Shown here: in pieces, positions 2,693-63,000 of the stretch | How positions within the stretch are numbered: the first letter of the stretch is position 1 | How the letters are laid out: each line of letters begins with the position of its first letter | Source of the DNA: a virus | Lineage: Duplodnaviria > Caudoviricetes | Strand: one strand, 5' to 3' | IMG/VR virus record: IMGVR_UViG_3300034170_000057 | DNA length: 64,000 bases | Position numbers and translations under genes: made by a program | The notes under the pieces: model-generated | What the model saw: the letters and a program-made list of their open reading frames with translations, nothing else | The model's database searches: none | Told to the model about the DNA's origin: nothing

Positions 2693-2901
2693 CAGAAATT
2701 CTACAACCTGCGCACCCGGATATTGTTCGGTTGCTGGATAAAACGCGTGGCAAAATGCCGACTCACGTCAACCTGATCGACAGTGAGTTTTACGGCTTCC
2801 CAATTATTTTAAAAGACGTGCAAGGCACCAGTGTTTACGCTATCGGTGAATCGGTAGATATGCAGTGGGTTATGCACCAACAGGAGACAGTAAATGTCTG
2901 A
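2689..2901 (+). CDS. hypothetical protein (start re-called to ATG 2689)
   Basis: ATGA overlap with the upstream stop at 2690-2692. Confidence 0.6.
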   Translation: MTEILQPAHPDIVRLLDKTRGKMPTHVNLIDSEFYGFPIILKDVQGTSVYAIGESVDMQWVMHQQETVNV

Positions 2902-4141
2902 TGACATGAAGAAAAAGAAAAAGAAAGTTGCTACGGAAGACGTGGCACCGAAAAAGAAAAAGAAAAAAGTAGTGGCCGAGGAAGAAACGACCACGAAAAA
3001 GAAAAAGAAAAAGGGTTTGGTAGCAAGCAAGGGCCTCGACCTCAAGCCGAAGAAAAAAGTCATGAAAGACTTGGGCCGTGATGTGTCGGGTACGCTCGCT
3101 GGCGACGACAAGCCGAAGAAAAAGAAAAAGGAAGTGGCGGCCCCTGAAATCACCCGCGTGCAACTTCCGGTCGAACAGGACGATTACATCATTGTCCAAG
3201 TCGGCAAGAAAAATAAACTGGTGTTCGCGCATAGCCCGAAACGCAACACAGGCTATCTGGAAGAGTCGCTGAATACCGATGAGCCCGTAGCCATTGAGTA
3301 CGACGGCAATACCCTGATCGCCAACCTCGGCAAAGATCCAAAGCCGGGTAAAGTTTTCGGCGTGGAAATCATGCCGCACCTCGGTGAAATCGACACGCCG
3401 ATTGGCCCTATGCACTTCTACCGTAAAGTGACCGACGCCGAGAAAGAAGCGCTCCGTATCGGTATCAAAAAAGCGCACAAGAAAATCGCTGATATTGATT
3501 TGGAAAAAGTCTTCCCGATCAGCCGTATCGAAGTACACAACCCGAAAGGTAAGTGGGCAGGCACCTACAGCGTCAACTTCAAGTCGGGCGAAGCGGTTGA
3601 CCTGATCAAACTCTTCCCGAAAATTCTGGAAGATCAAATCTACAACCAATACGTCATGGTTCACGAAATCGGCCACGGCATTTGGTATCGCTTCGTGCCT
3701 GAAAAGATCCGTGCGTTGTGGCTGGAACAGTACAACACAATGACCAAAGTCTCCAAGGCGAAAAAAGCCGATATGGAATCGTTGTGTCAGTCGCTGGTCA
3801 ATTCTCAAATGAGCATTCGCGAATTCCAACGCGACCTCGAAGAGGATGAACTGGCCCTGTTCAAAGAGGCGCTTTCGTACCTGAAGAAAGTTCACAAAAT
3901 GTCGCCAGAAGACGCGAACGTTCTGTTGAACCAAAACAGCAAAGTGCTGGCTGAAATCTGGCCGACTACCGCTTCGTTCTCCAACACGGATTCCGTGACG
4001 GCGCTCATGGGCGAATACGCGGGCACCAACGTACAGGAAATGTTCGCTGAAGCCTTCGCGCTTTCGCTGACCGGGAAACAAATCCCGAAAACTGTTCAGA
4101 AACTTCTGGATAAAACTCTCAAGGCGGCAATTGCCGAATAA
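2894..4141 (+). CDS. zincin-like metallopeptidase (HExxH) with a poly-Lys N-terminal extension
   Basis: VMVHEIGHGIW zinc motif plus downstream EYAGTNVQEMFAEAFA (third-ligand region typical of lethal-factor-like zincins). The first ~75 aa carry four K5-K8 runs. Confidence 0.7.
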   Translation: MSDDMKKKKKKVATEDVAPKKKKKKVVAEEETTTKKKKKKGLVASKGLDLKPKKKVMKDLGRDVSGTLAGDDKPKKKKKEVAAPEITRVQLPVEQDDYIIVQVGKKNKLVFAHSPKRNTGYLEESLNTDEPVAIEYDGNTLIANLGKDPKPGKVFGVEIMPHLGEIDTPIGPMHFYRKVTDAEKEALRIGIKKAHKKIADIDLEKVFPISRIEVHNPKGKWAGTYSVNFKSGEAVDLIKLFPKILEDQIYNQYVMVHEIGHGIWYRFVPEKIRALWLEQYNTMTKVSKAKKADMESLCQSLVNSQMSIREFQRDLEEDELALFKEALSYLKKVHKMSPEDANVLLNQNSKVLAEIWPTTASFSNTDSVTALMGEYAGTNVQEMFAEAFALSLTGKQIPKTVQKLLDKTLKAAIAE

Positions 4142-16609: not shown

Positions 16610-16625
16610 CTAATTTATTATTAGT
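16610..16625 (+). promoter_or_regulatory. motif B CTAATTTATTATTAGT upstream of the histone-like gene
   Basis: Intergenic; near-identical copy at 58491. Confidence 0.55.
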
Positions 16626-16687: not shown

Positions 16688-18133
16688 ATGGTAATGAAAG
16701 CCGTCCAAAAGAAAAAGGGCGCGGTGGCCATTAAAGAGGCCAAAAAAGGTAAAGTTTACCGCCGCAAAAACAAATCCAAGCTGAATAAGCTGGCCAAGCA
16801 GCGCTACAAGACCATGACCCCAGCTGAAAAGCTGAAGTTTCATGCGCGTCAGGTATTCACCAAGGCCATGCGCCACGGTGCTACCGAAGCTGAAGCGAAA
16901 AAAGTCGTAATGGCTTGGAAAAAACGCCGCAAGCACCGCGCCGCTGGTACTCATGCTGCTGGTCAAAAGCGTGAAGTGACTGCTGCACAGCGTCAAATCC
17001 GTGAACAAATCCGGAAAAAATCGCTGGGCCTGCAAAGCGCCCACCAGAAAGCACTGAGCAAAATTCGTTCTGCCAAAGTGCCGCCTGCAAAACGCGCCGC
17101 GATGCGTCAAGCCGAAAAAGCCAGCTACGCCAACGCACGTAAAACCCTCGCGGGCGAACGTACCAAGGCCGCTGCCAGCCACCGTCAGGCCATGAAGAAA
17201 ATCAAACCGAAGGGTAAATTCTCCCTGAAGTCCCTGATCAGTAACTACAAGGCCAAGCCGATCAGCACCCAAGGTAAACGTCTGGTTGATATCGGCGCGA
17301 AAGCGGCGAAAGACGGCGTTGCACGAATCGCTGCAAAGCATTTCGGTAATGCAAAACCAGCAGCCAAAAAAGCAGCTGGCGGCGTTACCAAAAAAGCGCC
17401 TAAAAGCGCTGCTGCCTCACCGGCTGCTGCACCGAAGAAAGTAGGCCGTCCGAAAAACGTCGGCACTACCCTTGGCGAAGGTGAAAAACCAACCCGCCGC
17501 GCACTCGGTAGCCCTACCAAAGCAAAACCAGCCGCCGCTGCTCCAGCAGCTGAAAAGCGTAAACCGGGCCGTCCGAAGAAAGTAGCCGCCGCTCCGGCTG
17601 CCGCTGCTGAAGCGAAACCGAAACGCAAATACACCAAGAAAGCCGTAGCCGCTCCAGCCGCTGCCCCAGCAGCTGAGAAACGCAAACCGGGCCGTCCGAA
17701 GAAAGTAGCTGCTGCCGCTCCGGCTGCCGCACCTGCCGCCGAAAAACGCAAACCGGGTCGTCCGAAAAAAGTCGCCGCTGAAGCTGCAAAACCTGCTGCT
17801 AAAGCTCCGGCCAAAAAGCCGACTAAATCCGCTGCTGCCAAGAAACCTGCCGCTGCCGCCCCAGCCGCTGAAAAGCGTAAACCGGGCCGTCCGAAAAAGG
17901 TAACTGAAGCCGCTGCCCCAGCAGCTGAGAAACGCAAACCGGGCCGTCCGAAGAAAGTAGCCGCTGCCGCTCCGGCTGCAAAGCCAGCAGCAAAAGCCAA
18001 AGCCAAGGAAAAAGCAGCAGCCAAAGCTCCGGCCAAAAAGCCGACTAAAGCCGCTGCCGCTAAACCGGCTGCCAAAGCAGCACCTGCCAAGAAAAAAGTT
18101 GGTGGCGCCGTTCCAAAAGCTAAATTCGGTTAA
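16688..18133 (+). CDS. histone-H1/HMGA-like basic DNA-binding protein with repeated AT-hook-like motifs (481 aa)
   Basis: Extremely K/A/P/R-rich; five EKRKPGRPKKV, one KVGRPK and one KRKYTKK; GAGGA SD; own promoter-like site and terminator. Confidence 0.8.
   Translation: MVMKAVQKKKGAVAIKEAKKGKVYRRKNKSKLNKLAKQRYKTMTPAEKLKFHARQVFTKAMRHGATEAEAKKVVMAWKKRRKHRAAGTHAAGQKREVTAAQRQIREQIRKKSLGLQSAHQKALSKIRSAKVPPAKRAAMRQAEKASYANARKTLAGERTKAAASHRQAMKKIKPKGKFSLKSLISNYKAKPISTQGKRLVDIGAKAAKDGVARIAAKHFGNAKPAAKKAAGGVTKKAPKSAAASPAAAPKKVGRPKNVGTTLGEGEKPTRRALGSPTKAKPAAAAPAAEKRKPGRPKKVAAAPAAAAEAKPKRKYTKKAVAAPAAAPAAEKRKPGRPKKVAAAAPAAAPAAEKRKPGRPKKVAAEAAKPAAKAPAKKPTKSAAAKKPAAAAPAAEKRKPGRPKKVTEAAAPAAEKRKPGRPKKVAAAAPAAKPAAKAKAKEKAAAKAPAKKPTKAAAAKPAAKAAPAKKKVGGAVPKAKFG
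17552..17959 (+). repeat. coding tandem repeat: five copies of gaaaagcgtaaaccgggccgtccgaagaaagt-like units with Ala/Pro spacers
   Basis: Copies differ mostly at synonymous positions, consistent with selection at the protein level. Confidence 0.85.
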
Positions 18134-33173: not shown

Positions 33174-33206
33174 TACCGTAGGCCTAATCCCCTAACGGGT
33201 ATCTCT

Positions 33207-56748: not shown

Positions 56749-57087
56749 ATGCTCACGTTTTTGAGTGATCCTGACGAACGTCATTTGCCCATGCATGAGC
56801 GCACCACGGTTTGGGTTTGCGATGGCGATAAACGCATTGCAACCCTTGCCGCTGTGCCTGACGAAAGCGCAAACCGTTCGCAGCAAACCGCAATGTGGAC
56901 CGCAAAAATCCACCACAAACAATTCGATCCTTTCGATCATGATCAAGAATTGGACGAAGAAAATCCAAACGTTCATGTGGCACAAAGTGAGGAAGGATTA
57001 CTATCGCTGAATAATCCGAATAAGCTGGCAATTGCAGACGCCCGCCAGTGGGTGCGCGATCATTACACTGGAGGTTCCAAAAAATGA
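56749..57087 (+). CDS. hypothetical protein, 112 aa
   Basis: AGGAGG SD. Confidence 0.7.
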   Translation: MLTFLSDPDERHLPMHERTTVWVCDGDKRIATLAAVPDESANRSQQTAMWTAKIHHKQFDPFDHDQELDEENPNVHVAQSEEGLLSLNNPNKLAIADARQWVRDHYTGGSKK

Positions 57088-57905
57088 TTGTCGATCAACA
57101 CGGAAACGATATAGGCAATATGTCGCTAGCGTTCAATTTCGGTACGCCAGTTTCGACCATTGAACTCAACGGCGCTCGTTTGAACGAAGCCGGACAGCTG
57201 CCTATCAGCGCAGAGTTTTCTGGCACTGGTGAAGCGGTAACGCTGGAAGCAAACACGTGGCTGCGCCGTGCTGCTGAATATCACAATCTTTCGCGCAATA
57301 TTAACGATTACATTTTGGTGGCCGTTCCTGCAATGGTTACGCGCCTCCCCAATACCAATGGGGATTCCGTAGACCTTAAGCAATTCACCGCGTGGAATGA
57401 ACCGTGCGCACGCATGGCTTACAAAACGTGGGAAGGCCGCCCGATGTATATCGAACACCAGCACAAACCTGAATGGGTTCGTGGTCTGATTTTCGGTACG
57501 TTTATGCGCCCGACGCCGTTCAAAAACATCGAGAAATTGGTAATGCTCGCAGCCCTCGACCGCACCCGCGATCAGGTTCGTTGTGCGCGTGTTCTGAAAC
57601 GTGAATTGAACACGTATTCCATGGGCATGATGTACAGCGCTTATCAGTGTTCCGTTTGCGGGCATATTGCCGGTAAAGGAATCGGTGCGCCGTGCAGCCA
57701 TACGCGACCGGGTAAACCGACATATCGTTTGACCGATGGCCGTTTGGTTTATCGCCGTTGCATGAATATCACAGGTTTCGAATTGTCGCTGCTGGAAAAC
57801 GTTGGTGGTCGCCACGGCCAAGACGGGTACACGCAAGGCTTTGGTGATCCGTCCTATGTTTCCGCAATCGGGGATATTATTCTCGATCCGAAATCAATGC
57901 AGTAA
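57084..57905 (+). CDS. putative prohead (capsid maturation) protease with a Cys/His zinc insert (start re-called to 57084)
   Basis: PNTNGD, YIEHQH (His), YSMG (Ser), CSVCGH...CSH, GFELS...DP..VSA: layout of HK97/assemblin-fold proteases of large phages; upstream of scaffold and MCP; GGAGG SD. Confidence 0.65.
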   Translation: MIVDQHGNDIGNMSLAFNFGTPVSTIELNGARLNEAGQLPISAEFSGTGEAVTLEANTWLRRAAEYHNLSRNINDYILVAVPAMVTRLPNTNGDSVDLKQFTAWNEPCARMAYKTWEGRPMYIEHQHKPEWVRGLIFGTFMRPTPFKNIEKLVMLAALDRTRDQVRCARVLKRELNTYSMGMMYSAYQCSVCGHIAGKGIGAPCSHTRPGKPTYRLTDGRLVYRRCMNITGFELSLLENVGGRHGQDGYTQGFGDPSYVSAIGDIILDPKSMQ

Positions 57906-57916
57906 AGGGGATTTAA

Positions 57917-58060
57917 ATGGCCGAAGTATTGTGGCGAATCAAGATGCACCGTCGTGCTGAAATCACTGCGGTGTTTCTCGGCACCTATCGACCACGCGGC
58001 ATGTATGCGAGCTTTGGTGCATACGTTGTACCTCGTGAAATCGGTGTTGGTGAAGGTTGA
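57917..58060 (+). CDS. small ORF, 47 aa (MAEVLWRIKMHRRAEITAVFLGTYRPRGMYASFGAYVVPREIGVGEG)
   Basis: AAAGGGG SD; fills the gap after the protease; below the track cut-off. Confidence 0.5.
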   Translation: MAEVLWRIKMHRRAEITAVFLGTYRPRGMYASFGAYVVPREIGVGEG

Positions 58061-58205
58061 AAACCAACGAAGAATTGCCGCCCGGACATAAGCAGAAAAA
58101 CCAAGATCCTCCGAAGGATAATCACGAAGATGATTGGTCAAACGGCTGGTAAACATTCAAAGGTCTACATGCGATAGCCCATCACATTCCCGTGGTGGGC
58201 GTCGA

Positions 58206-58481
58206 ATGCAGATTAAGCGAATGTCCTACGATAAAGAACAGAAACAATTGCAGCGGTTTCATGTGGCACGCGTTATTCAACGCCGCGTTAAAGCATGGAA
58301 CCATTACCCAAATGGAACCGATACGCTCAAGCCATCTAATAAGTGGAATAAGCGCAACGCATTCAATTGCGGTCAATCGAACTGTTGGATGTGCGGCAAC
58401 CCTCGGCGTGTTAAAGGCGAAGTAACCATTCATGAATTGGTTGCAATCGAATCGTTTGAATACGCACTGAAACACATCTGA
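58206..58481 (+). CDS. small basic protein with a CxxxxCxxCGNPRR motif (start re-called to 58206)
   Basis: NCGQSNCWMCGNPRRVKGEVTIHE, a pattern common in small phage hypothetical proteins. Confidence 0.6.
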   Translation: MQIKRMSYDKEQKQLQRFHVARVIQRRVKAWNHYPNGTDTLKPSNKWNKRNAFNCGQSNCWMCGNPRRVKGEVTIHELVAIESFEYALKHI

Positions 58482-58490
58482 AAAACGTCG

Positions 58491-58506
58491 CTAATTTATT
58501 AATAGT
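58491..58506 (+). promoter_or_regulatory. motif B CTAATTTATTAATAGT
   Basis: 15/16 match to 16610; precedes the sRNA candidate. Confidence 0.5.
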
Positions 58507-58589
58507 CTACGAGGGTAGGCTTGTTGTATCTCTTTATGTCACAGCATTTTAGCCCATACAGGTTCCCCCGCCTGTGTGGGCTTTTTTTT
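58500..58589 (+). ncRNA. candidate ~90-nt small RNA
   Basis: Promoter-like CTAATTTATTAATAGT (15/16 identical to the site before the histone-like gene), 5' hairpin GTCTAC-GAGG-GTAGGC, U-rich linker, strong terminator; no credible ORF. Confidence 0.45.
58551..58589 (+). terminator. intrinsic terminator
   Basis: AGCCCATACAGG-TTCCCCCG-CCTGTGTGGGCT-TTTTTTT. Confidence 0.9.
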
Positions 58590-58610
58590 GTCCAAAATAA
58601 CTGTTTGCCC

Positions 58611-58618
58611 TAATTTAA
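58611..58618 (+). promoter_or_regulatory. motif B TAATTTAA
   Basis: Between a terminator and the head module. Confidence 0.55.
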
Positions 58619-58643
58619 ACATGTAGCATCAAGGAGTCTGCTA

Positions 58644-59006
58644 ATGGAAATGTTCATTGCGTTAGCAGCCTCGCCATTGTCTGATATGCACCAGCCCAAA
58701 ACATTTGATTTTCGTAGTCTGAAGCATCATTTGCATAACATTCAAGAAATCCGAAAGGGTTTAGTTCATTGCGAAATCAACTACGATCACGAATGTAATG
58801 GCAAGCCGCATCATAGCGCCCGCGTTGACTTCGTTTCTGATATGGGTACAGGTAGCATTCAATTCACCCTTGAAGAAACGAATTGGAAATACGAGGGTGA
58901 AACGGATATTAATGGCGAAAACACGAAATACGCAGGGTATACCGCACACAATTCTGTGCAAGCGGTTTGCCGCAAGGTTCGTGGGCTGCTGTTGAAACTA
59001 CTCTGA
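58644..59006 (+). CDS. hypothetical protein, 120 aa (head module)
   Basis: AAGGAG SD; TAATTTAA site at 58611; starts MEMFIALAAS. Confidence 0.7.
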   Translation: MEMFIALAASPLSDMHQPKTFDFRSLKHHLHNIQEIRKGLVHCEINYDHECNGKPHHSARVDFVSDMGTGSIQFTLEETNWKYEGETDINGENTKYAGYTAHNSVQAVCRKVRGLLLKLL

Positions 59007-59074
59007 AGTTTTTGAACTTTGTAATTTTTAAACGTGAGGTATAAAAACCCACAAACTCTTAAATGGAGTGAACC

Positions 59075-61030
59075 ATGTCGAATCGAAAATCGCGCCTGCG
59101 CGGCATCGTCGTTATGGCTGATAACCAAGAGCAAGCAATGGAGCTTTTCAGCGCTGTCGCTTCCGGCACCTATCGCGTTATGGAAAGTAAAAGCGGCGAT
59201 TTTGCCGTTGCTACTGCCATTTCGGATATGCAACTTCTGAACCCGATTGACGGCGAAGAAATGGTTGCAGTTGCGGATGCGGATAAGCATGAAATGGTGG
59301 CTGTAGCCTCGAATGCTGGTGAGGATATGGACGCATTCTATCAAGCCTGCTCTAGCGGTTGCGGCGCACACGTTATTACTGACAGTCTTGAACTGTTGGA
59401 TAAATGCCCAGCTTGCGCTTCCGACCTCCCAAAAATGGAAGACGCTGACTTGAAAACGAACTCTCAACCAAAAGAATTGCTGCTCGCCGTAGCAACTGAT
59501 CGCGTTTCTGCTGTTGAAGCATTCCGCGCTCTGGCCTCTGGCGAATGCGAGACTTTCGCCGCTAAATGCGACGACGTGATGGTGATTTCGAACCAACCAA
59601 TCAACTTCGATATTTACAAAAATATCCCAGCTGTTGCGGTTGCCGAATACACCCCACAACTGGCCGTGGCATCCAGCGCCACCGAAGACGGCAAATTGAA
59701 GGTGCATTACCTGACCACCGCTAGCGATAGCGGCCAAGAAATGCACATCATCGCCAGCAATCCCTCCCCGATTTTCTGCCCTGTTACCAACATGGGCCTC
59801 GTTGATCCGGAAGACGAAATGAGCGCAGAGCAAAAAGCTACTGCAAGCGCTGATTTCCTCGGCACTGCTGCCAAGTGCAAAGCCTCTGACGAAGAGGAAG
59901 AAGAGGACGAAGACGAAGACGAAGACGAAGACTTCGACGACGAAGACGAAGAGGAAGAAGACAGCGAAGAGGAAGAAGAGGAAGACGAAGACGACAACGA
60001 AGAAGAGGAAGAAGATGACGACGATCTTTCCCTCGGTCTGGCTGCCTCGAAAAAAGGCAAAAAGAAAAAAGGCGGCGTAAAGCGCAAGGTAAAACCTGAA
60101 ATGGCTACCGCAAACGCACAAACCGACGCAATCGTACCGGCTGCCGAACAGGCCCCGGCTGTTGCTGTCGCAACCGAACAAACCGAAGCAGAACAAGCCG
60201 CAGCACCAGTTGTTGCCGCTGTTGTTGAAACCACGGCTCCGGTCGAAGTTTCCGCTTCTTTCGTTTCCATCGCCAGCGCCGAAATGAAAGAAAATTCTGT
60301 TGATGTTAATTATGTAGGTAACGTCCAAGGCGAACCTACGTGGATGGCATTTCACAACGGTATTCCTTTCGCGAAAGCAATTGCTTCGGCTTCCGAAAAC
60401 CCTGCCACTTTTGCTGATCCAGCAATTGGCCGTGCTTTCAAAGCAATCGCCAGTGAACAAGGCGTGCATGCTGCGTTGGAACAACTTCGTTTCGAAGAAA
60501 TCAAACCGGTTCTGCAAATCGAACAGGTTGTTGCGGAACAAATTCAATCGCAAGTTACCGAACAAGGTAACGTGCTGGCTGAAGCAACCGCACGCGATAA
60601 ATCGGAACTCGCAACCCGCTACGAATCCGCTCTGGCGACGGCTGCACACGGTATTAACACCGGTTATTTCCGTGACATGAGCAACCCGATTGTGACCGCG
60701 CTCGCTTCCTCTTTGGAAGACGTAGGTCTGGCCGGTGCTGCTGAACTTCTGCAACGTGCTTTCATTGATCACTCGCCGGAATACCATGCCAGCATCTTGG
60801 CAAAGGCCGCTGAAATCATGCAGTACGAGCAAGTGGTTCAAAACCAGATGGCAACCGCCGTAACGCAAATCGAACCGAAAAACGTGGCTACCGCGTCCTC
60901 GCTTTCGATGGGCCGAGCGGTTCAACGTCCTGCGCAAGTGCAACAAGAAAACGTGATCGCGACCGCTTCGGCTGAGCAACCACAAAACACCGACTTCCAA
61001 AGCAAGCTGAAAGGCTTGAAACTGTTCTAA
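59075..61030 (+). CDS. putative prohead scaffold/core protein, 651 aa
   Basis: Between protease and capsid genes; Ala-rich, ~35-residue D/E block followed by KKGKKKKGG, many A[VT]AS motifs, amphipathic C-terminus FQSKLKGLKLF. Confidence 0.6.
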   Translation: MSNRKSRLRGIVVMADNQEQAMELFSAVASGTYRVMESKSGDFAVATAISDMQLLNPIDGEEMVAVADADKHEMVAVASNAGEDMDAFYQACSSGCGAHVITDSLELLDKCPACASDLPKMEDADLKTNSQPKELLLAVATDRVSAVEAFRALASGECETFAAKCDDVMVISNQPINFDIYKNIPAVAVAEYTPQLAVASSATEDGKLKVHYLTTASDSGQEMHIIASNPSPIFCPVTNMGLVDPEDEMSAEQKATASADFLGTAAKCKASDEEEEEDEDEDEDEDFDDEDEEEEDSEEEEEEDEDDNEEEEEDDDDLSLGLAASKKGKKKKGGVKRKVKPEMATANAQTDAIVPAAEQAPAVAVATEQTEAEQAAAPVVAAVVETTAPVEVSASFVSIASAEMKENSVDVNYVGNVQGEPTWMAFHNGIPFAKAIASASENPATFADPAIGRAFKAIASEQGVHAALEQLRFEEIKPVLQIEQVVAEQIQSQVTEQGNVLAEATARDKSELATRYESALATAAHGINTGYFRDMSNPIVTALASSLEDVGLAGAAELLQRAFIDHSPEYHASILAKAAEIMQYEQVVQNQMATAVTQIEPKNVATASSLSMGRAVQRPAQVQQENVIATASAEQPQNTDFQSKLKGLKLF

Positions 61031-61045
61031 TCGGAGAAATTCCCC

Positions 61046-61783
61046 ATGATCGTTGATAAATACACTCGCGCTTTCAACACCGAATTCCGCGACGTTGAAC
61101 CCGGCCTCGACCTGCGTGAAGACGGCCAAGCGCTCGTTTTCTCGAAAGTGAATGGCCGTACTTACGTGCGCCCATCGCAAGGCGTTACTGGCGAAATCTT
61201 CGCCGGTATTTCCGTGAACCGGAACACCCCGCCTTCGTTCCTGCCGAAAATCGTTTCCGGTTCCATCGTTCCGGAAAGCGGCGTTGTTGACCTCGGTCGT
61301 CTGCCACTGAATGGCCAAATGCTGGTTAAAGTCGGCGGCGACGTTCTGGAAATTTCCGCTGCTGCGCCTGTTGAAGGCAAAGTGCAAAGCGTCGGCACCA
61401 AACTGTATTTCTTCACCGGCACTCCAGCCAACGGCGGCACCCCTGCTGTTCCGGGCGATACCGGCAAAGAACTGTTTGTGCAGATGATGTACGAACCGAC
61501 CGTTTCCGAAGCCAAAACCGTGCGCGGTGATGCGCCAATCGGCGGCCTGTCGAGTTCCGAACTGGGCCGCATTGCGGTACTGACCCGTGCCGAATCCGTC
61601 GCTACCACTTTCTACGACGCCGCTGCCGATTGGTCGAACGTTCTGCGTCCGAAATTGGGCGTTGACGGTAAATTCACTTCGAGCGGTCCCGGCGAAATCG
61701 TCAACACTGTGTTGGTTCTGCAAACCCCAGTGGCTGACGCTTCTTCCTACGGCCCTCTGGTCGTCAAAATCACCAACGCTTAA
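61046..61783 (+). CDS. putative capsid decoration/minor head protein, 245 aa
   Basis: Immediately upstream of the MCP; beta-rich; GGAGA SD; highly expressed codon usage. Confidence 0.55.
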   Translation: MIVDKYTRAFNTEFRDVEPGLDLREDGQALVFSKVNGRTYVRPSQGVTGEIFAGISVNRNTPPSFLPKIVSGSIVPESGVVDLGRLPLNGQMLVKVGGDVLEISAAAPVEGKVQSVGTKLYFFTGTPANGGTPAVPGDTGKELFVQMMYEPTVSEAKTVRGDAPIGGLSSSELGRIAVLTRAESVATTFYDAAADWSNVLRPKLGVDGKFTSSGPGEIVNTVLVLQTPVADASSYGPLVVKITNA

Positions 61784-61819
61784 TCGCGGATCATTCGAAA
61801 ATCTTTGGAGATACAAAAC

Positions 61820-62920
61820 ATGTTGAACAAAATTCAAGGCGCCCGGATGGTACTGGCTGGTACTGGTGATCCGCTCGAATCCCTGCGTTATTCGAAAGGT
61901 GGTGAACTGGCCCTGTCCGCCAGCACCGGCGAATTCAACGCCAGCTCGCAAAAAGACCTCGCGCTGCAAATCGGTCGTTTGATGCAGGCTGTACAAAGCG
62001 GCGTGATCGTTCCTGAAGCTCAACAAATGGCAACCGCTTCGACTCGCGAAGATCGTCGCGATATCATGCGCGAAGCAATGGCTTCCGACGAAAACTGGAA
62101 AGCACTGGGCGCGAACATTGCGCAACAGGTTTACGAGCAATCCGAGCGCGACGGTTTCCTGCGTAAACTTTCGCAAGGTAACACCCTGCGTCAGGGCGAA
62201 GTACAACGCGTTCCAATGCCTCCGCATGATTCGATGGCAGTTGTTGCCACCGGCCCTGCTGGCGTCGGCTACCAGAACATTCGCGCACGTCAATTCCTGC
62301 CTGCCGAATTCGAAATCATCGCCAACGTTCGCGTAAACGCGCTGGACATGGAACAGGTTTCGGGCGATCTGCTGGAACACGCTTACAACGACGCGCTGCA
62401 ATCCATGATGGTGCAGGAAGACCGTCTGTGGAAAATCGCAGCTGACGCAACTGTCGGCATGATGAACCCAATCGAATACATCGCGGGCGAACTGACCACC
62501 AAAAACCTTGGTCGTCTGCGCACCGCTGTGACCGACTGGAACCTGCCCGCAACCACCGCGATCATTTCGAACGATTACTGGTCCGATATCATCGGTTCGA
62601 ACGATTTCGCAACCATGCTCGATCCGATCACCAAGTACGACTTGGCTCTGAACGGCCAGCTGGGTACGCTGGTTGGTCTGCAACTGCTGACCGATGGTTT
62701 CCGCGCACCGAACCAAAAGGTTCTGGATCGTGGCGAAATCTACGTTGTTGCCAGCCCTGAACACCACGCCGCGTACAGCACCCGTGGCGGTATCCAATCC
62801 CGTCCGGTTGACTACGCGCACGAAGGTTCGACCGCCAAAGGCTGGATGCTGTCCGAAGCGTTCTCGTTCGTTCTCGCCAACAACCGTTCCGTAGTGAAAG
62901 GTAAGCGTCTGGTTCGTTAA
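61820..62920 (+). CDS. major capsid protein (HK97 fold; start re-called to ATG 61820, 366 aa)
   Basis: Size, position after scaffold/decoration genes, strong codon bias, GGAG SD; E-loop-like LRQGEVQRVP, backbone helix LLEHAYNDALQSMMVQEDRLW, C-terminal GWMLSEAFSFVLANNRSVVKG. Confidence 0.8.
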   Translation: MLNKIQGARMVLAGTGDPLESLRYSKGGELALSASTGEFNASSQKDLALQIGRLMQAVQSGVIVPEAQQMATASTREDRRDIMREAMASDENWKALGANIAQQVYEQSERDGFLRKLSQGNTLRQGEVQRVPMPPHDSMAVVATGPAGVGYQNIRARQFLPAEFEIIANVRVNALDMEQVSGDLLEHAYNDALQSMMVQEDRLWKIAADATVGMMNPIEYIAGELTTKNLGRLRTAVTDWNLPATTAIISNDYWSDIIGSNDFATMLDPITKYDLALNGQLGTLVGLQLLTDGFRAPNQKVLDRGEIYVVASPEHHAAYSTRGGIQSRPVDYAHEGSTAKGWMLSEAFSFVLANNRSVVKGKRLVR

Positions 62921-63000
62921 TTAATCTCCGCGTCGGTTGAAGTGAAAAGGAGCGCCCCTTTAAATTTCAACCGGCGTTAGATTCTTCTGGAGATTATACG

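What the first reader, a model, noticed from the sequence alone, without database searches (positions are those of the whole stretch)
58491..58589. Candidate phage sRNA complementary to the major-capsid ribosome-binding site
Seen: a promoter-like 16-mer 15/16 identical to the one before the histone-like gene, a 5' hairpin (GTCTAC-GAGG-GTAGGC), a U-rich single-stranded linker, and a 12-bp terminator with U8. A new motif-B site follows at 58611, so the unit looks self-contained. The linker TTGTATCTC (58524-58532) is the exact reverse complement of GAGATACAA (61808-61816), which covers the MCP SD and spacer; one more G-U pair gives 10 contiguous pairs. Established: this layout is typical of Hfq-type trans-acting sRNAs. 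Inference: an sRNA tuning MCP translation or capsid stoichiometry, or delaying exposure of MCP to host sensors. Caveats: a 9-mer match arises by chance about 0.25 times per 64 kb and I found it post hoc; GTATCTCT also occurs just before the polymerase ATG (33199-33206), so it may instead be a protein-binding site.
Basis: partly seen in the sequence, partly recalled or inferred. Interest (0 to 1): 0.75.

Follow-up and report, generated by a model that had tools for sequence, protein, structure and literature searches.

The report
Conserved candidate late small RNA
A Lu11-like giant Pseudomonas phage carries a short, strongly conserved non-coding unit (promoter, hairpin, open C/U-rich stretch, terminator) that looks like a late small regulatory RNA, but its match to the capsid gene's ribosome-binding site is a chance, lineage-specific match.

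Summary
The window is a Lu11/HRDY3-like jumbo Pseudomonas phage.

**What supports a small RNA**
- Window 58491-58589 is a self-contained unit. It has a structural-gene promoter motif (TAATTTA-N4-TAG), a stem-loop at the predicted 5' end, a roughly 30-nt C/U-rich stretch, a UUU(U/A) tract, and a 13-bp terminator with U8. A second promoter follows for the next gene.
- The same layout occurs once per genome, at the same place, in Lu11, HRDY3 and about 12 uncultured relatives.
- It is better conserved (0.87-0.93 identity) than the flanking genes (0.63 and 0.77), and than the capsid gene (0.86).
- The terminator shows compensatory changes, and one relative has a completely different 5' stem sequence.
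- No ORF is conserved, no Rfam family matches, and neither published genome annotates it.

I read it as a candidate ~85-nt late sRNA that shares its terminator with the upstream head-protease operon (confidence about 0.55).

**What fails for the capsid target**
- The 9-10 bp pairing exists only in the window and its closest relative.
- There are no compensatory changes, and the capsid leader is the least conserved segment nearby (0.57).
- The capsid start region ranks 11th of 72 start regions.
- 38% of shuffled linkers reach a 9-nt match to some start region.

Expression is untested and the target is unknown.

The parts
58491..58506 (+). P1: structural-gene ('motif B') promoter-like site, CTAATTTA-TTAA-TAG(T). 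The predicted transcription start is at or near the TAG (58503-58505).
   Evidence: It is 15/16 identical to the site before the gene at 16688. TAATTTA occurs 6 times in the window, all on the + strand and all intergenic. TAATTTA-N3-7-TAG occurs 8 times in HRDY3 and 5 times in Lu11, against 2 and 0 for the backwards control. Of the 8 HRDY3 sites, 7 lie just upstream of co-oriented genes or this unit, several of them virion genes; one of the 7 falls inside an annotated gene start, and the eighth is inside the terminase gene. The motif is invariant in all 13 aligned units. The start site is inferred, not mapped.
58504..58521 (+). 5'-terminal stem-loop: AGUCUAC-GAGG-GUAGGCU, 7 bp.
   Evidence: It is 96.5% paired across 13 units, with U-G to C-G and C-G to U-G changes. 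L028 has a completely different 8-bp stem at the same place. Three other motif-B transcripts of the window (16611, 18212, 44352) also begin with a stem.
58522..58550 (+). Conserved, mostly unpaired linker and candidate seed region. It has a C/U-rich core AUCUCUUUAUGUC (58528-58540), optionally presented in the loop of a weak stem UGUUGU/ACAGCA. It ends in the UUUU tract (58547-58550) just before the terminator.
   Evidence: TCTCTTTATGTCACAGCATTT is identical in all 9 units of the window/HRDY3 clade. Identity is 0.86-0.97 to the four close relatives, against 0.56-0.79 for the upstream CDS. All five lineages keep a CUC(U/C) core (CAACU in L026) and TTT(T/A) before AGCCC.
58551..58589 (+). Intrinsic terminator: a 13-bp G+C-rich stem, a 6-nt loop, and a run of eight U (58582-58589). 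It also ends the upstream head-protease operon.
   Evidence: Four pairs have changes on both sides and 95.2% of cells are paired. The U run is 8-11 long in all 13 units. There is no T-run after the hairpin on the - strand.
58609..58643 (+). P2: a second motif-B promoter (CCTAATTTA-AACATG-TAG) and a short leader for the 120-aa gene and the head operon (scaffold-like 'ATPase', virion protein, MCP). The leader stem UAGCA/UGCUA encloses the SD.
   Evidence: It is conserved in all relatives. Lu11 has UAGCG/CGUUA, which preserves the pairing.
61807..61816 (+). MCP SD and spacer (GGAGATACAA), complementary to 58524-58533. This is the proposed target site, judged here to be a chance match specific to this lineage.
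58206..58481 (+). Upstream gene (91 aa from the ATG at 58206; phrog_4499, function unknown; CGQSNCWMCG motif). It is the last gene before the unit, so its mRNA would carry the unit as a 3' UTR.
   Evidence: No terminator lies between this gene and 58551.
58644..59006 (+). Downstream 120-aa gene, found only in the Lu11-like clade. It served as the anchor for finding relatives.

Best explanation
Window 58491-58589 is a conserved non-coding transcription unit of Lu11-like jumbo phages. It most likely encodes an ~85-nt small RNA made late in infection.

**Proposed mechanism (inferred)**
- RNA polymerase programmed for the phage's structural-gene promoter class (TAATTTA-N4-6-TAG) starts at about 58503-58505.
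- The first 19 nt fold into a 5'-terminal stem-loop, which would protect the RNA from 5'-end-dependent decay.
- Transcription stops at the strong terminator at 58551-58589.
- Because the same terminator ends the upstream head-protease operon, the RNA sequence also exists as that operon's 3' UTR. This is the layout of 3'-UTR-type sRNAs that have their own promoter.
- The ~30-nt conserved, largely unpaired C/U-rich segment (core AUCUCUUUAUGUC, anti-SD-like CUC(U/C)) would base-pair with one or more phage or host mRNAs near their ribosome-binding sites.
- The UUU(U/A) tract plus hairpin plus U8 tail is the arrangement that Hfq-dependent sRNAs use to bind Hfq.

**Shown:** the anatomy, its conservation, stem covariation, single copy per genome, and the absence of a conserved ORF.

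**Inferred:** promoter activity, the 5' end, a discrete RNA product, Hfq use and trans action.

The target is unknown. The MCP leader is not a conserved target.
For: 1. **Anatomy and stability.** (z -5.75). The units of HRDY3, Lu11, L008 and L028 fold the same way (z -4.9 to -7.0).
2. **Real promoter class.** P1 has the same motif as the sites in front of the Lys-rich protein gene, the connector block, the tail sheath gene and the head operon. Three other such sites are also followed directly by a stem. P2 follows the terminator, so the downstream genes do not need P1.
3. **Conservation.** The unit is present once, in the same position, in HRDY3, Lu11 and 12 uncultured relatives. Identity is 0.87-0.93, against 0.63 and 0.77 for the flanking CDS, 0.86 for the MCP CDS, and 0.57-0.69 for other intergenic DNA.
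4. **Structure is selected.** 95.7% of cells are paired. Four terminator pairs show double changes. No shuffle in 500 reaches the observed covariation score, and slid controls give 21-51% paired. L028 replaces the whole 5' stem with another sequence.
5. **Hfq-module-like 3' end.** It is conserved in all 13 units: TTT(T/A) directly before the hairpin and 8-11 U after it. That this arrangement binds Hfq rests on established knowledge of enterobacterial sRNAs, not on a test here.
6. **No conserved ORF.** One-base indels before and inside the terminator shift the only ATG-initiated frame, which also lacks an SD.
7. **Precedent.** Phage sRNAs of this size that end at operon terminators and bind Hfq are known, for example lambda LPR1/PreS.
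Against: - No experimental evidence of a discrete RNA is available. Only assembled contigs of metatranscriptomes could be laid, and these cannot show ends or levels.
- The terminator would be needed anyway to end the upstream operon, and terminators often covary.
- All compensatory double changes lie in the terminator, not in the 5' stem.
- No conserved target was found among 72 start regions of the window and their orthologues in HRDY3 and Lu11.
- No extended complementary site exists elsewhere in the HRDY3 or Lu11 genomes.
- Only four or five independent lineages exist, and most copies are close relatives.
- In L026 the predicted MFE fold uses an alternative middle hairpin instead of the 5' stem.
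Confidence: 0.55

Rival explanations
1. Cis-acting transcription module rather than a trans-acting sRNA. The terminator ends the long upstream operon. P1 with its short leader is a promoter-proximal attenuator, read through only when the polymerase is modified, as at lambda pR'-6S-tR' under Q. The short RNA would then be a by-product. The conserved leader would be a loading or pause site or a put-like RNA element.
For: - A promoter of the structural-gene class sits 60 nt before a strong terminator, directly upstream of the head operon.
- Lambda makes a 194-nt 6S RNA in exactly this way.
- The 3' arm of the 5' stem (GUAGGCU) could pair with the first bases of the terminator (AGCCCAU), 6 of 7 pairs read from the sequence. 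This gives a possible antiterminator.
Against: - A second, equally conserved promoter (P2) lies between the terminator and the first gene, so the head operon does not depend on read-through.
- The possible antiterminator is far weaker than the 13-bp terminator.
- That possible antiterminator is absent in L028, where the 5' stem has another sequence.
- No antiterminator gene was sought or found.
Confidence: 0.22
2. One reading: a trans-acting sRNA whose linker pairs with the SD and spacer of the major capsid protein mRNA and tunes MCP translation.
For: - There are 9 Watson-Crick pairs plus one G-U pair over the MCP SD and spacer in the window and in L003.
- Both would be expressed late.
- Relative to the GAGAAATAA leader of the other close relatives (L004-L006, HRDY3), the two differences in the window's leader both improve pairing. 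The direction of change is assumed, and the odds of this by chance are about 1 in 9.
Against: - The pairing is lost in every other lineage, and nowhere does a change on one side come with a compensating change on the other. Duplex energies are -6 to -7.6 kcal/mol in HRDY3, L007-L011, Lu11 and L026, against -13.7 in the window.
- The MCP start region ranks 11th of 72 in the window and below average in HRDY3 and Lu11.
- The MCP 5' UTR is the least conserved segment of the region (0.57), while the linker is among the most conserved.
- 38% of shuffled linkers give a 9-nt match to some start region.
Confidence: 0.05
3. There is no RNA function beyond termination. The block is conserved because it acts as DNA, for example as a binding site for a late transcription factor or another protein, or P1 is a conserved but idle promoter copy.
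For: - No expression data exist and no target was found.
- P1 and P2 share CTAATTTA and could have arisen by duplication.
Against: - The 5' stem is kept through a complete change of sequence in L028, and through pair-preserving changes in Lu11 and L026. This points to selection on a folded strand, not on a duplex DNA sequence.
- The supposed second copy of the site (GTATCTCT before the polymerase gene) is not conserved.
- The linker has no repeat or palindrome typical of protein operators.
Confidence: 0.13
4. A very small protein gene: ATG at 58537, 25 codons running through the terminator.
For: An ATG is present in the conserved linker, and a 30-codon TTG frame is listed at 58521-58613.
Against: - There is no SD before the ATG.
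- One-base indels in L004-L006, HRDY3 and Lu11 shift the frame.
- L026 and L028 have GTG in place of the ATG and a shorter linker.
- The frame would run through the terminator hairpin.
Confidence: 0.02

Closest known systems
Phage lambda LPR1/PreS sRNA (~88 nt, Hfq-bound, ends at terminator tL2a of the early-left operon; bioRxiv 10.1101/2024.10.31.621285)
   Same: - A phage-encoded RNA of about the same size.
- Its 3' end is the intrinsic terminator (G+C-rich hairpin plus poly-U) of an upstream operon.
- It is expressed in the lytic cycle and has an unpaired seed.
   Different: - There is no sequence or Rfam similarity.
- Lambda is temperate and uses host promoters. This phage is a jumbo phage, the unit has its own structural-gene-class promoter, and it lies in the head module.
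- Expression, Hfq binding and targets are shown for PreS (host dnaN). None of them is shown here.
3'-UTR-type sRNAs with their own promoter (type I; e.g. Salmonella DapZ, E. coli MicL); from my own knowledge
   Same: - A promoter at the end of, or just behind, the upstream coding sequence.
- The sRNA shares the mRNA's terminator.
- A conserved seed lies upstream of an Hfq-type 3' module.
   Different: Those are cellular sRNAs with mapped 5' ends and known targets. Here the promoter is a phage-specific motif and nothing has been mapped.
Lambda 6S RNA (pR' to tR', 194 nt) and Q antitermination
   Same: A late promoter is followed after a short distance by a strong terminator, just upstream of the virion genes. 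The short terminated RNA accumulates.
   Different: A second promoter (P2) follows the terminator here. The RNA is half as long. No Q-like factor or binding site has been identified.
Non-coding RNAs found by RNA-seq in other Pseudomonas phages (PA5oct ncRNA001-004, PMC7318152; PAK_P4 antisense RNAs, PMC12197685)
   Same: They are unannotated non-coding transcripts of virulent Pseudomonas phages, and their function is mostly unknown.
   Different: - The PA5oct RNAs are 236-619 nt, lie in other genome regions and lack known promoters.
- The PAK_P4 RNAs are cis-antisense.
- No homology was seen. The unit is absent even from PaBG, the next relative of Lu11.

Membership tests
Hfq-type trans-acting sRNA (functional class) | Own promoter giving a discrete primary transcript | tested here: inconclusive
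   A promoter-class motif is present, conserved and shared with five gene-proximal sites in the window. No 5'-end data exist, because only contigs could be laid.
Hfq-type trans-acting sRNA (functional class) | Rho-independent terminator with a long U tail, preceded by a U-rich single-stranded tract | tested here: met
   A 13-bp stem plus U8, with 8-11 U in all 13 units. TTT(T/A) lies directly before the stem in all 13.
Hfq-type trans-acting sRNA (functional class) | Conserved, accessible seed region | tested here: met
   A 21-nt block is identical in all 9 units of the window/HRDY3 clade, and a CUC(U/C) core is shared by all lineages (CAACU in L026). The region is unpaired or sits in the loop of a weak stem in the predicted folds.
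Hfq-type trans-acting sRNA (functional class) | A target whose complementarity is conserved or covaries | tested here: not met
   The MCP pairing is not conserved. The best in-window hit (gene 2894, -21.2 kcal/mol) is not conserved either. There is no extended complementary site in the HRDY3 or Lu11 genomes. Host mRNAs could not be searched.
Hfq-type trans-acting sRNA (functional class) | Binding to Hfq and dependence on it | not testable with these tools
   This needs co-immunoprecipitation or RIL-seq in infected Pseudomonas.
Any described RNA family (Rfam 15) | Covariance-model score at or above the family's gathering threshold | tested here: not met
   There are no hits at gathering thresholds in the whole window. 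The best sub-threshold hits score 10-24 bits against thresholds of 37-108, and are mainly to terminator-bearing sRNAs and cis-regulatory motifs.
Lambda-type late-promoter attenuator (pR'-6S-tR') | Late genes depend on read-through of the terminator, with no promoter between the terminator and the genes | tested here: not met
   A conserved second promoter motif (P2) lies at 58609-58626, between the terminator and the first gene, in all relatives.
Lambda-type late-promoter attenuator (pR'-6S-tR') | Phage-encoded antiterminator acting at the promoter-proximal region | not tested
   No search for Q-like proteins was made.

The most novel reading that the evidence does not exclude
Lu11-like jumbo phages encode a dedicated late sRNA, transcribed from their own structural-gene promoter class. 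Its anti-Shine-Dalgarno-like C/U-rich loop acts in trans on host or phage ribosome-binding sites, so that translation is reprogrammed during virion assembly. This would be the first conserved trans-acting sRNA family of a virulent Pseudomonas jumbo phage. It would come with ready comparative data: five lineages with divergent seeds.
Probability: 0.3. Interest if true: 0.65.

Novelty: new member of a known kind. Interest (0 to 1): 0.42.

Why it matters
Trans-acting sRNAs of virulent phages are barely known. Most described phage sRNAs come from temperate coliphages and prophages.

This unit is unannotated but clearly selected. It has a promoter, two stems and a conserved open segment in a cultivable phage-host pair (Lu11 with Pseudomonas putida, and HRDY3). 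It could therefore be tested directly by Northern blot, cappable-seq or RIL-seq.

The analysis also defines the structural-gene promoter class TAATTTA-N3-7-TAG of this phage group. The Lu11 record does not annotate it and lists only CTGTAAATA sites. Transcripts from this class often start with a stem.

The negative result matters too. The attractive capsid-RBS pairing is what chance delivers and should not guide experiments.

Tried and rejected
1. **Metatranscriptome data.**
   - A peat metatranscriptome (X1) holds 98% of the sampled words of 57000-63000 but only a third of the unit's words.
   - Its identical contigs end at 58544 and resume at 58636, with contig mean depths of 18.7 and 60.4. 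The terminator-to-P2 stretch is therefore uncovered.
   - This fits termination at 58589 and a new start near 58624. But these are assembled contigs from one study, and a hole proves nothing.
   - A wastewater RNA contig (X20) from a relative spans 58306-58679. No conclusion on expression was drawn.
2. **Target ranking in the window.** The best duplex was with the start of gene 2894 (peptidase, -21.2 kcal/mol). The orthologous sites give -11.2 in HRDY3 and -12.6 in Lu11, so it was rejected as chance. The best three-genome mean z was only -1.46 (gene 38442).
3. **Extended antisense sites to the linker in the whole HRDY3 and Lu11 genomes.** Only the locus itself matched, plus 3-mismatch hits at the level of the control.
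4. **GTATCTCT before the polymerase ATG as a shared protein site.** It is not conserved in HRDY3 or Lu11.
5. **Small ORF in the linker.** The frame is not conserved and has no SD.
6. **Rfam.** No family matches.
7. **Wider distribution.**
   - The 120-aa neighbour gene and the unit are confined to Lu11-like phages.
   - The PaBG head module has no TAATTTA site and no significant model hit.
8. **RsmA/CsrA- or Crc/Hfq-sponge reading.** There are no conserved GGA loops or A-rich repeats. The loop of the 5' stem varies: GAGG, UGAC, UAGG, GAAUA.
9. **Host targets.** No genome is held for this window and no host handle was available, so host mRNAs were not searched.

Full report
**Context**

The window belongs to a jumbo phage of the Lu11 group.
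- Megablast of 57500-60500 finds only Pseudomonas phages HRDY3 (78% identity) and Lu11.
- Gene order around the finding is the same in both: head maturation protease, small proteins, a ~160-nt gap, a 120-aa gene, a 650-aa 'ATPase' (scaffold-like), a virion structural protein, and the major head protein.
- PHROG matches confirm the protease, virion protein and MCP in the window.
- All genes in this part of the window are on the + strand.
- No whole genome is held for the window.

**Observation**

- CTAATTTATTAATAGT (58491-58506) is 15/16 identical to 16610-16625.
- There is a 7-bp hairpin at 58504-58521 and a linker at 58522-58550.
- There is a 13-bp terminator at 58551-58582 with eight T up to 58589.
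- A second TAATTTA lies at 58611.
- TTGTATCTC (58524-58532) is the reverse complement of GAGATACAA (61808-61816) over the MCP SD and spacer, plus one G-U pair.
- GTATCTCT occurs again at 33199.
- As RNA, 58503-58590 folds to -36.8 kcal/mol, z = -5.75.

**The promoter motif**

- TAATTTA occurs six times in the window (16611, 18212, 22964, 44352, 58492, 58611). All six are on the + strand and in the few intergenic gaps. None is on the - strand.
- At most 9% of the window is non-coding by a crude gene call, so six of six sites falling there is far from chance.
- Each site is followed 3-6 nt later by (T)AG or a similar purine-rich start. For four of the six, a stem begins within a few bases of that point.
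- The stricter pattern TAATTTA-N3-7-TAG occurs 8 times in HRDY3 and 5 times in Lu11, against 2 and 0 for the backwards control.
- In HRDY3 these sites sit just before the Lys-rich protein gene, two other genes, a site after the portal gene, and the two sites of this locus. A further site falls inside the annotated start of a gene next to a virion structural gene, and one lies inside the terminase gene.
- In the window, the motif also precedes the connector block and the tail sheath gene.
- The Lu11 RefSeq record annotates only CTGTAAATA sites as 'putative middle/late promoter', and annotates nothing in the gp069-gp068 gap.
- The Lu11/PaBG group encodes a divergent sigma-70-family factor (PMC7412058), which could read such a motif. 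That link is my inference.
- I therefore treat TAATTTA-N-TAG as the structural-gene, presumably late, promoter class. P1 at 58491 is a normal member of it except that no gene follows.

**Comparative evidence for the unit**

- Relatives were collected through the downstream 120-aa gene and through a DNA pattern: nine IMG/VR loci, one more plus Lu11 itself, and the metagenome contigs L024, L026, L027 and L028.
- All of them have the same layout: promoter motif, 5' stem, linker, TTT(T/A), terminator with 8-11 U, then a second promoter motif and the gene.
- Conservation to five relatives is 0.89 (P1), 0.93 (5' stem), 0.87 (linker) and 0.92 (terminator).
- The comparison values are 0.63 for the upstream CDS, 0.77 for the downstream CDS, 0.86 for the MCP CDS, 0.57 for the MCP 5' UTR and 0.69 for another intergenic gap.
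- The 21-mer TCTCTTTATGTCACAGCATTT is identical in all nine units of the window/HRDY3 clade.
- A covariance model built on the two stems finds exactly one copy in the window and in each locus, and one copy in each complete HRDY3 and Lu11 genome.
- On the model alignment, 95.7% of cells pair. Four terminator pairs carry changes on both sides. No shuffle in 500 reaches the observed covariation score. Sliding the 3' partners drops pairing to 21-51%.
- The 5' stem shows only one-sided changes among most copies. In L028, however, it is replaced by an unrelated 8-bp stem at the same position.
- The HRDY3, Lu11, L008 and L028 units fold into the same three-part shape (z -4.9 to -7.0). For L026 the MFE prefers an alternative middle hairpin.
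- No ORF is conserved, because one-base indels shift the only ATG frame and there is no SD.
- No Rfam family matches.
- PaBG, the next relative of Lu11, lacks the unit in its head module.

**The MCP target**

- The perfect 9-mer exists only in the window and L003.
- L004-L006 have the identical linker, but their MCP leader reads GAGAAATAA (one mismatch and one wobble).
- HRDY3 and L020 changed the sRNA to TTGTACCTC while the leader stayed GAGAAATAA (two central mismatches).
- L007-L011, Lu11 and L026 retain only the 4-5 bp contact between CUC(U/C) and GGAG.
- Nowhere does a change on one side come with a compensating change on the other.
- By duplex energy, the MCP start region is 11th of 72 in the window (z -0.8) and worse than average in HRDY3 (+1.3) and Lu11 (+1.6).
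- Shuffled linkers reach a 9-nt perfect match to some start region in 38% of trials.
- The supposed target region is the least conserved segment nearby.
- I conclude that the MCP complementarity consists of a generic anti-SD contact plus a chance extension specific to this lineage.
- The second occurrence of GTATCTCT, before the polymerase gene, is not conserved either.

**Other targets**

- The best in-window duplex (start of the peptidase gene at 2894, -21.2 kcal/mol) is not conserved.
- No gene scores well in all three genomes.
- There is no long antisense site elsewhere in HRDY3 or Lu11.
- Host mRNAs could not be searched.

What the five lineages share in the linker is shown below.

| Lineage | C/U-rich stretch |
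|---|---|
| Window | GUAUCUCUUUAUG |
| HRDY3 | GUACCUCUUUAUG |
| Lu11 | UUCAACUCCCCAUG |
| L026 | CUCCAACUGUG |
| L028 | UUAACCUCUGUG |

These stretches resemble an anti-SD sequence. In all lineages a U tract follows, directly before the terminator.

**Expression**

- A peat metatranscriptome (X1) contains this phage at 100% identity. Its contigs stop at 58544 and restart at 58636.
- This is compatible with termination at the hairpin and a new start at P2. But it comes from contigs of one study, so it is listed only under things tried.
- No raw-read RNA data were available.

**Interpretation**

The best reading is a late-expressed ~85-nt sRNA gene whose terminator doubles as the terminator of the upstream operon, with an unknown target (confidence about 0.55).

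- The main rival is a cis-acting promoter-proximal attenuator of the lambda pR'-6S-tR' kind (about 0.22). The conserved promoter P2 behind the terminator weakens it.
- A purely DNA-level role (about 0.13) is hard to reconcile with the stem replacement in L028.
- The MCP-targeting model gets about 0.05.
- The closest known things are lambda LPR1/PreS and 3'-UTR-type sRNAs with their own promoters (and my own knowledge). The unit belongs to no described family.

An earlier first-stage note of this scan (e1-5408908) described the same stretch as a candidate late small RNA. That is the same DNA read again, not independent support.

Noticed in passing
window 16611, 18212, 22964, 44352, 58492, 58611: TAATTTA-N3-6-(T)AG is a strand-specific, strictly intergenic promoter-like motif before virion gene blocks. 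Four of the six predicted transcripts begin with a stem-loop directly at the predicted start. The Lu11 RefSeq record does not annotate this class and lists only CTGTAAATA sites as middle/late promoters.
   Followed up: partly
window 58624-58643 (and the same place in all relatives): The leader of the 120-aa gene forms a short stem, UAGCA/UGCUA, that encloses the SD (AAGGAG) in its loop. Lu11 has UAGCG/CGUUA, which keeps the pairing through changes on both sides.
   Followed up: partly
L034:2706-2962 (- strand) = HRDY3 PQ015379.1 115205-115461: A second ORF-free gap lies between the portal gene and the next gene. It holds TAATTTA-GAAC-TAG and ACTGTAAATA. A ~190-nt stretch follows with a long stem (GGGATTGCGCAGCGTC ... 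GACGCTGCGCAATCTC) and a terminator before the next SD. This may be another structured non-coding RNA of this phage group.
   Followed up: no
window 58206-58481: The small gene just upstream of the unit (phrog_4499, function unknown) carries a conserved NKRNxFNCGxxxCxMCxNPRR motif. This is a zinc-knuckle-like Cys cluster, also present in the Lu11-type contig L027. Whether it binds nucleic acid is unknown.
   Followed up: no
window 59075-61030: The 651-aa 'ATPase' (phrog_20988) has no Pfam ATPase domain. It shows only a weak low-complexity match (Nop14-like) and a weak match to a head-protease PHROG. HRDY3 annotates it as two ORFs. It may be a scaffold-like head protein rather than an ATPase.
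   Followed up: no
window 2894-2915: The first codons of the peptidase gene (ATGTCTGATGACATGAAGA) are complementary to the sRNA linker over about 19 pairs with gaps (-21.2 kcal/mol). This is better than the MCP site, but the orthologous sites in HRDY3 and Lu11 are not complementary.
   Followed up: yes
window 57900-59300, run X1: A peat metatranscriptome contains this phage at 100% identity over the stretch laid (57900-59300) and holds 98% of the sampled words of 57000-63000. It may be the sample the window was assembled from, and it would be the place to look for raw-read evidence of transcript ends.
   Followed up: partly
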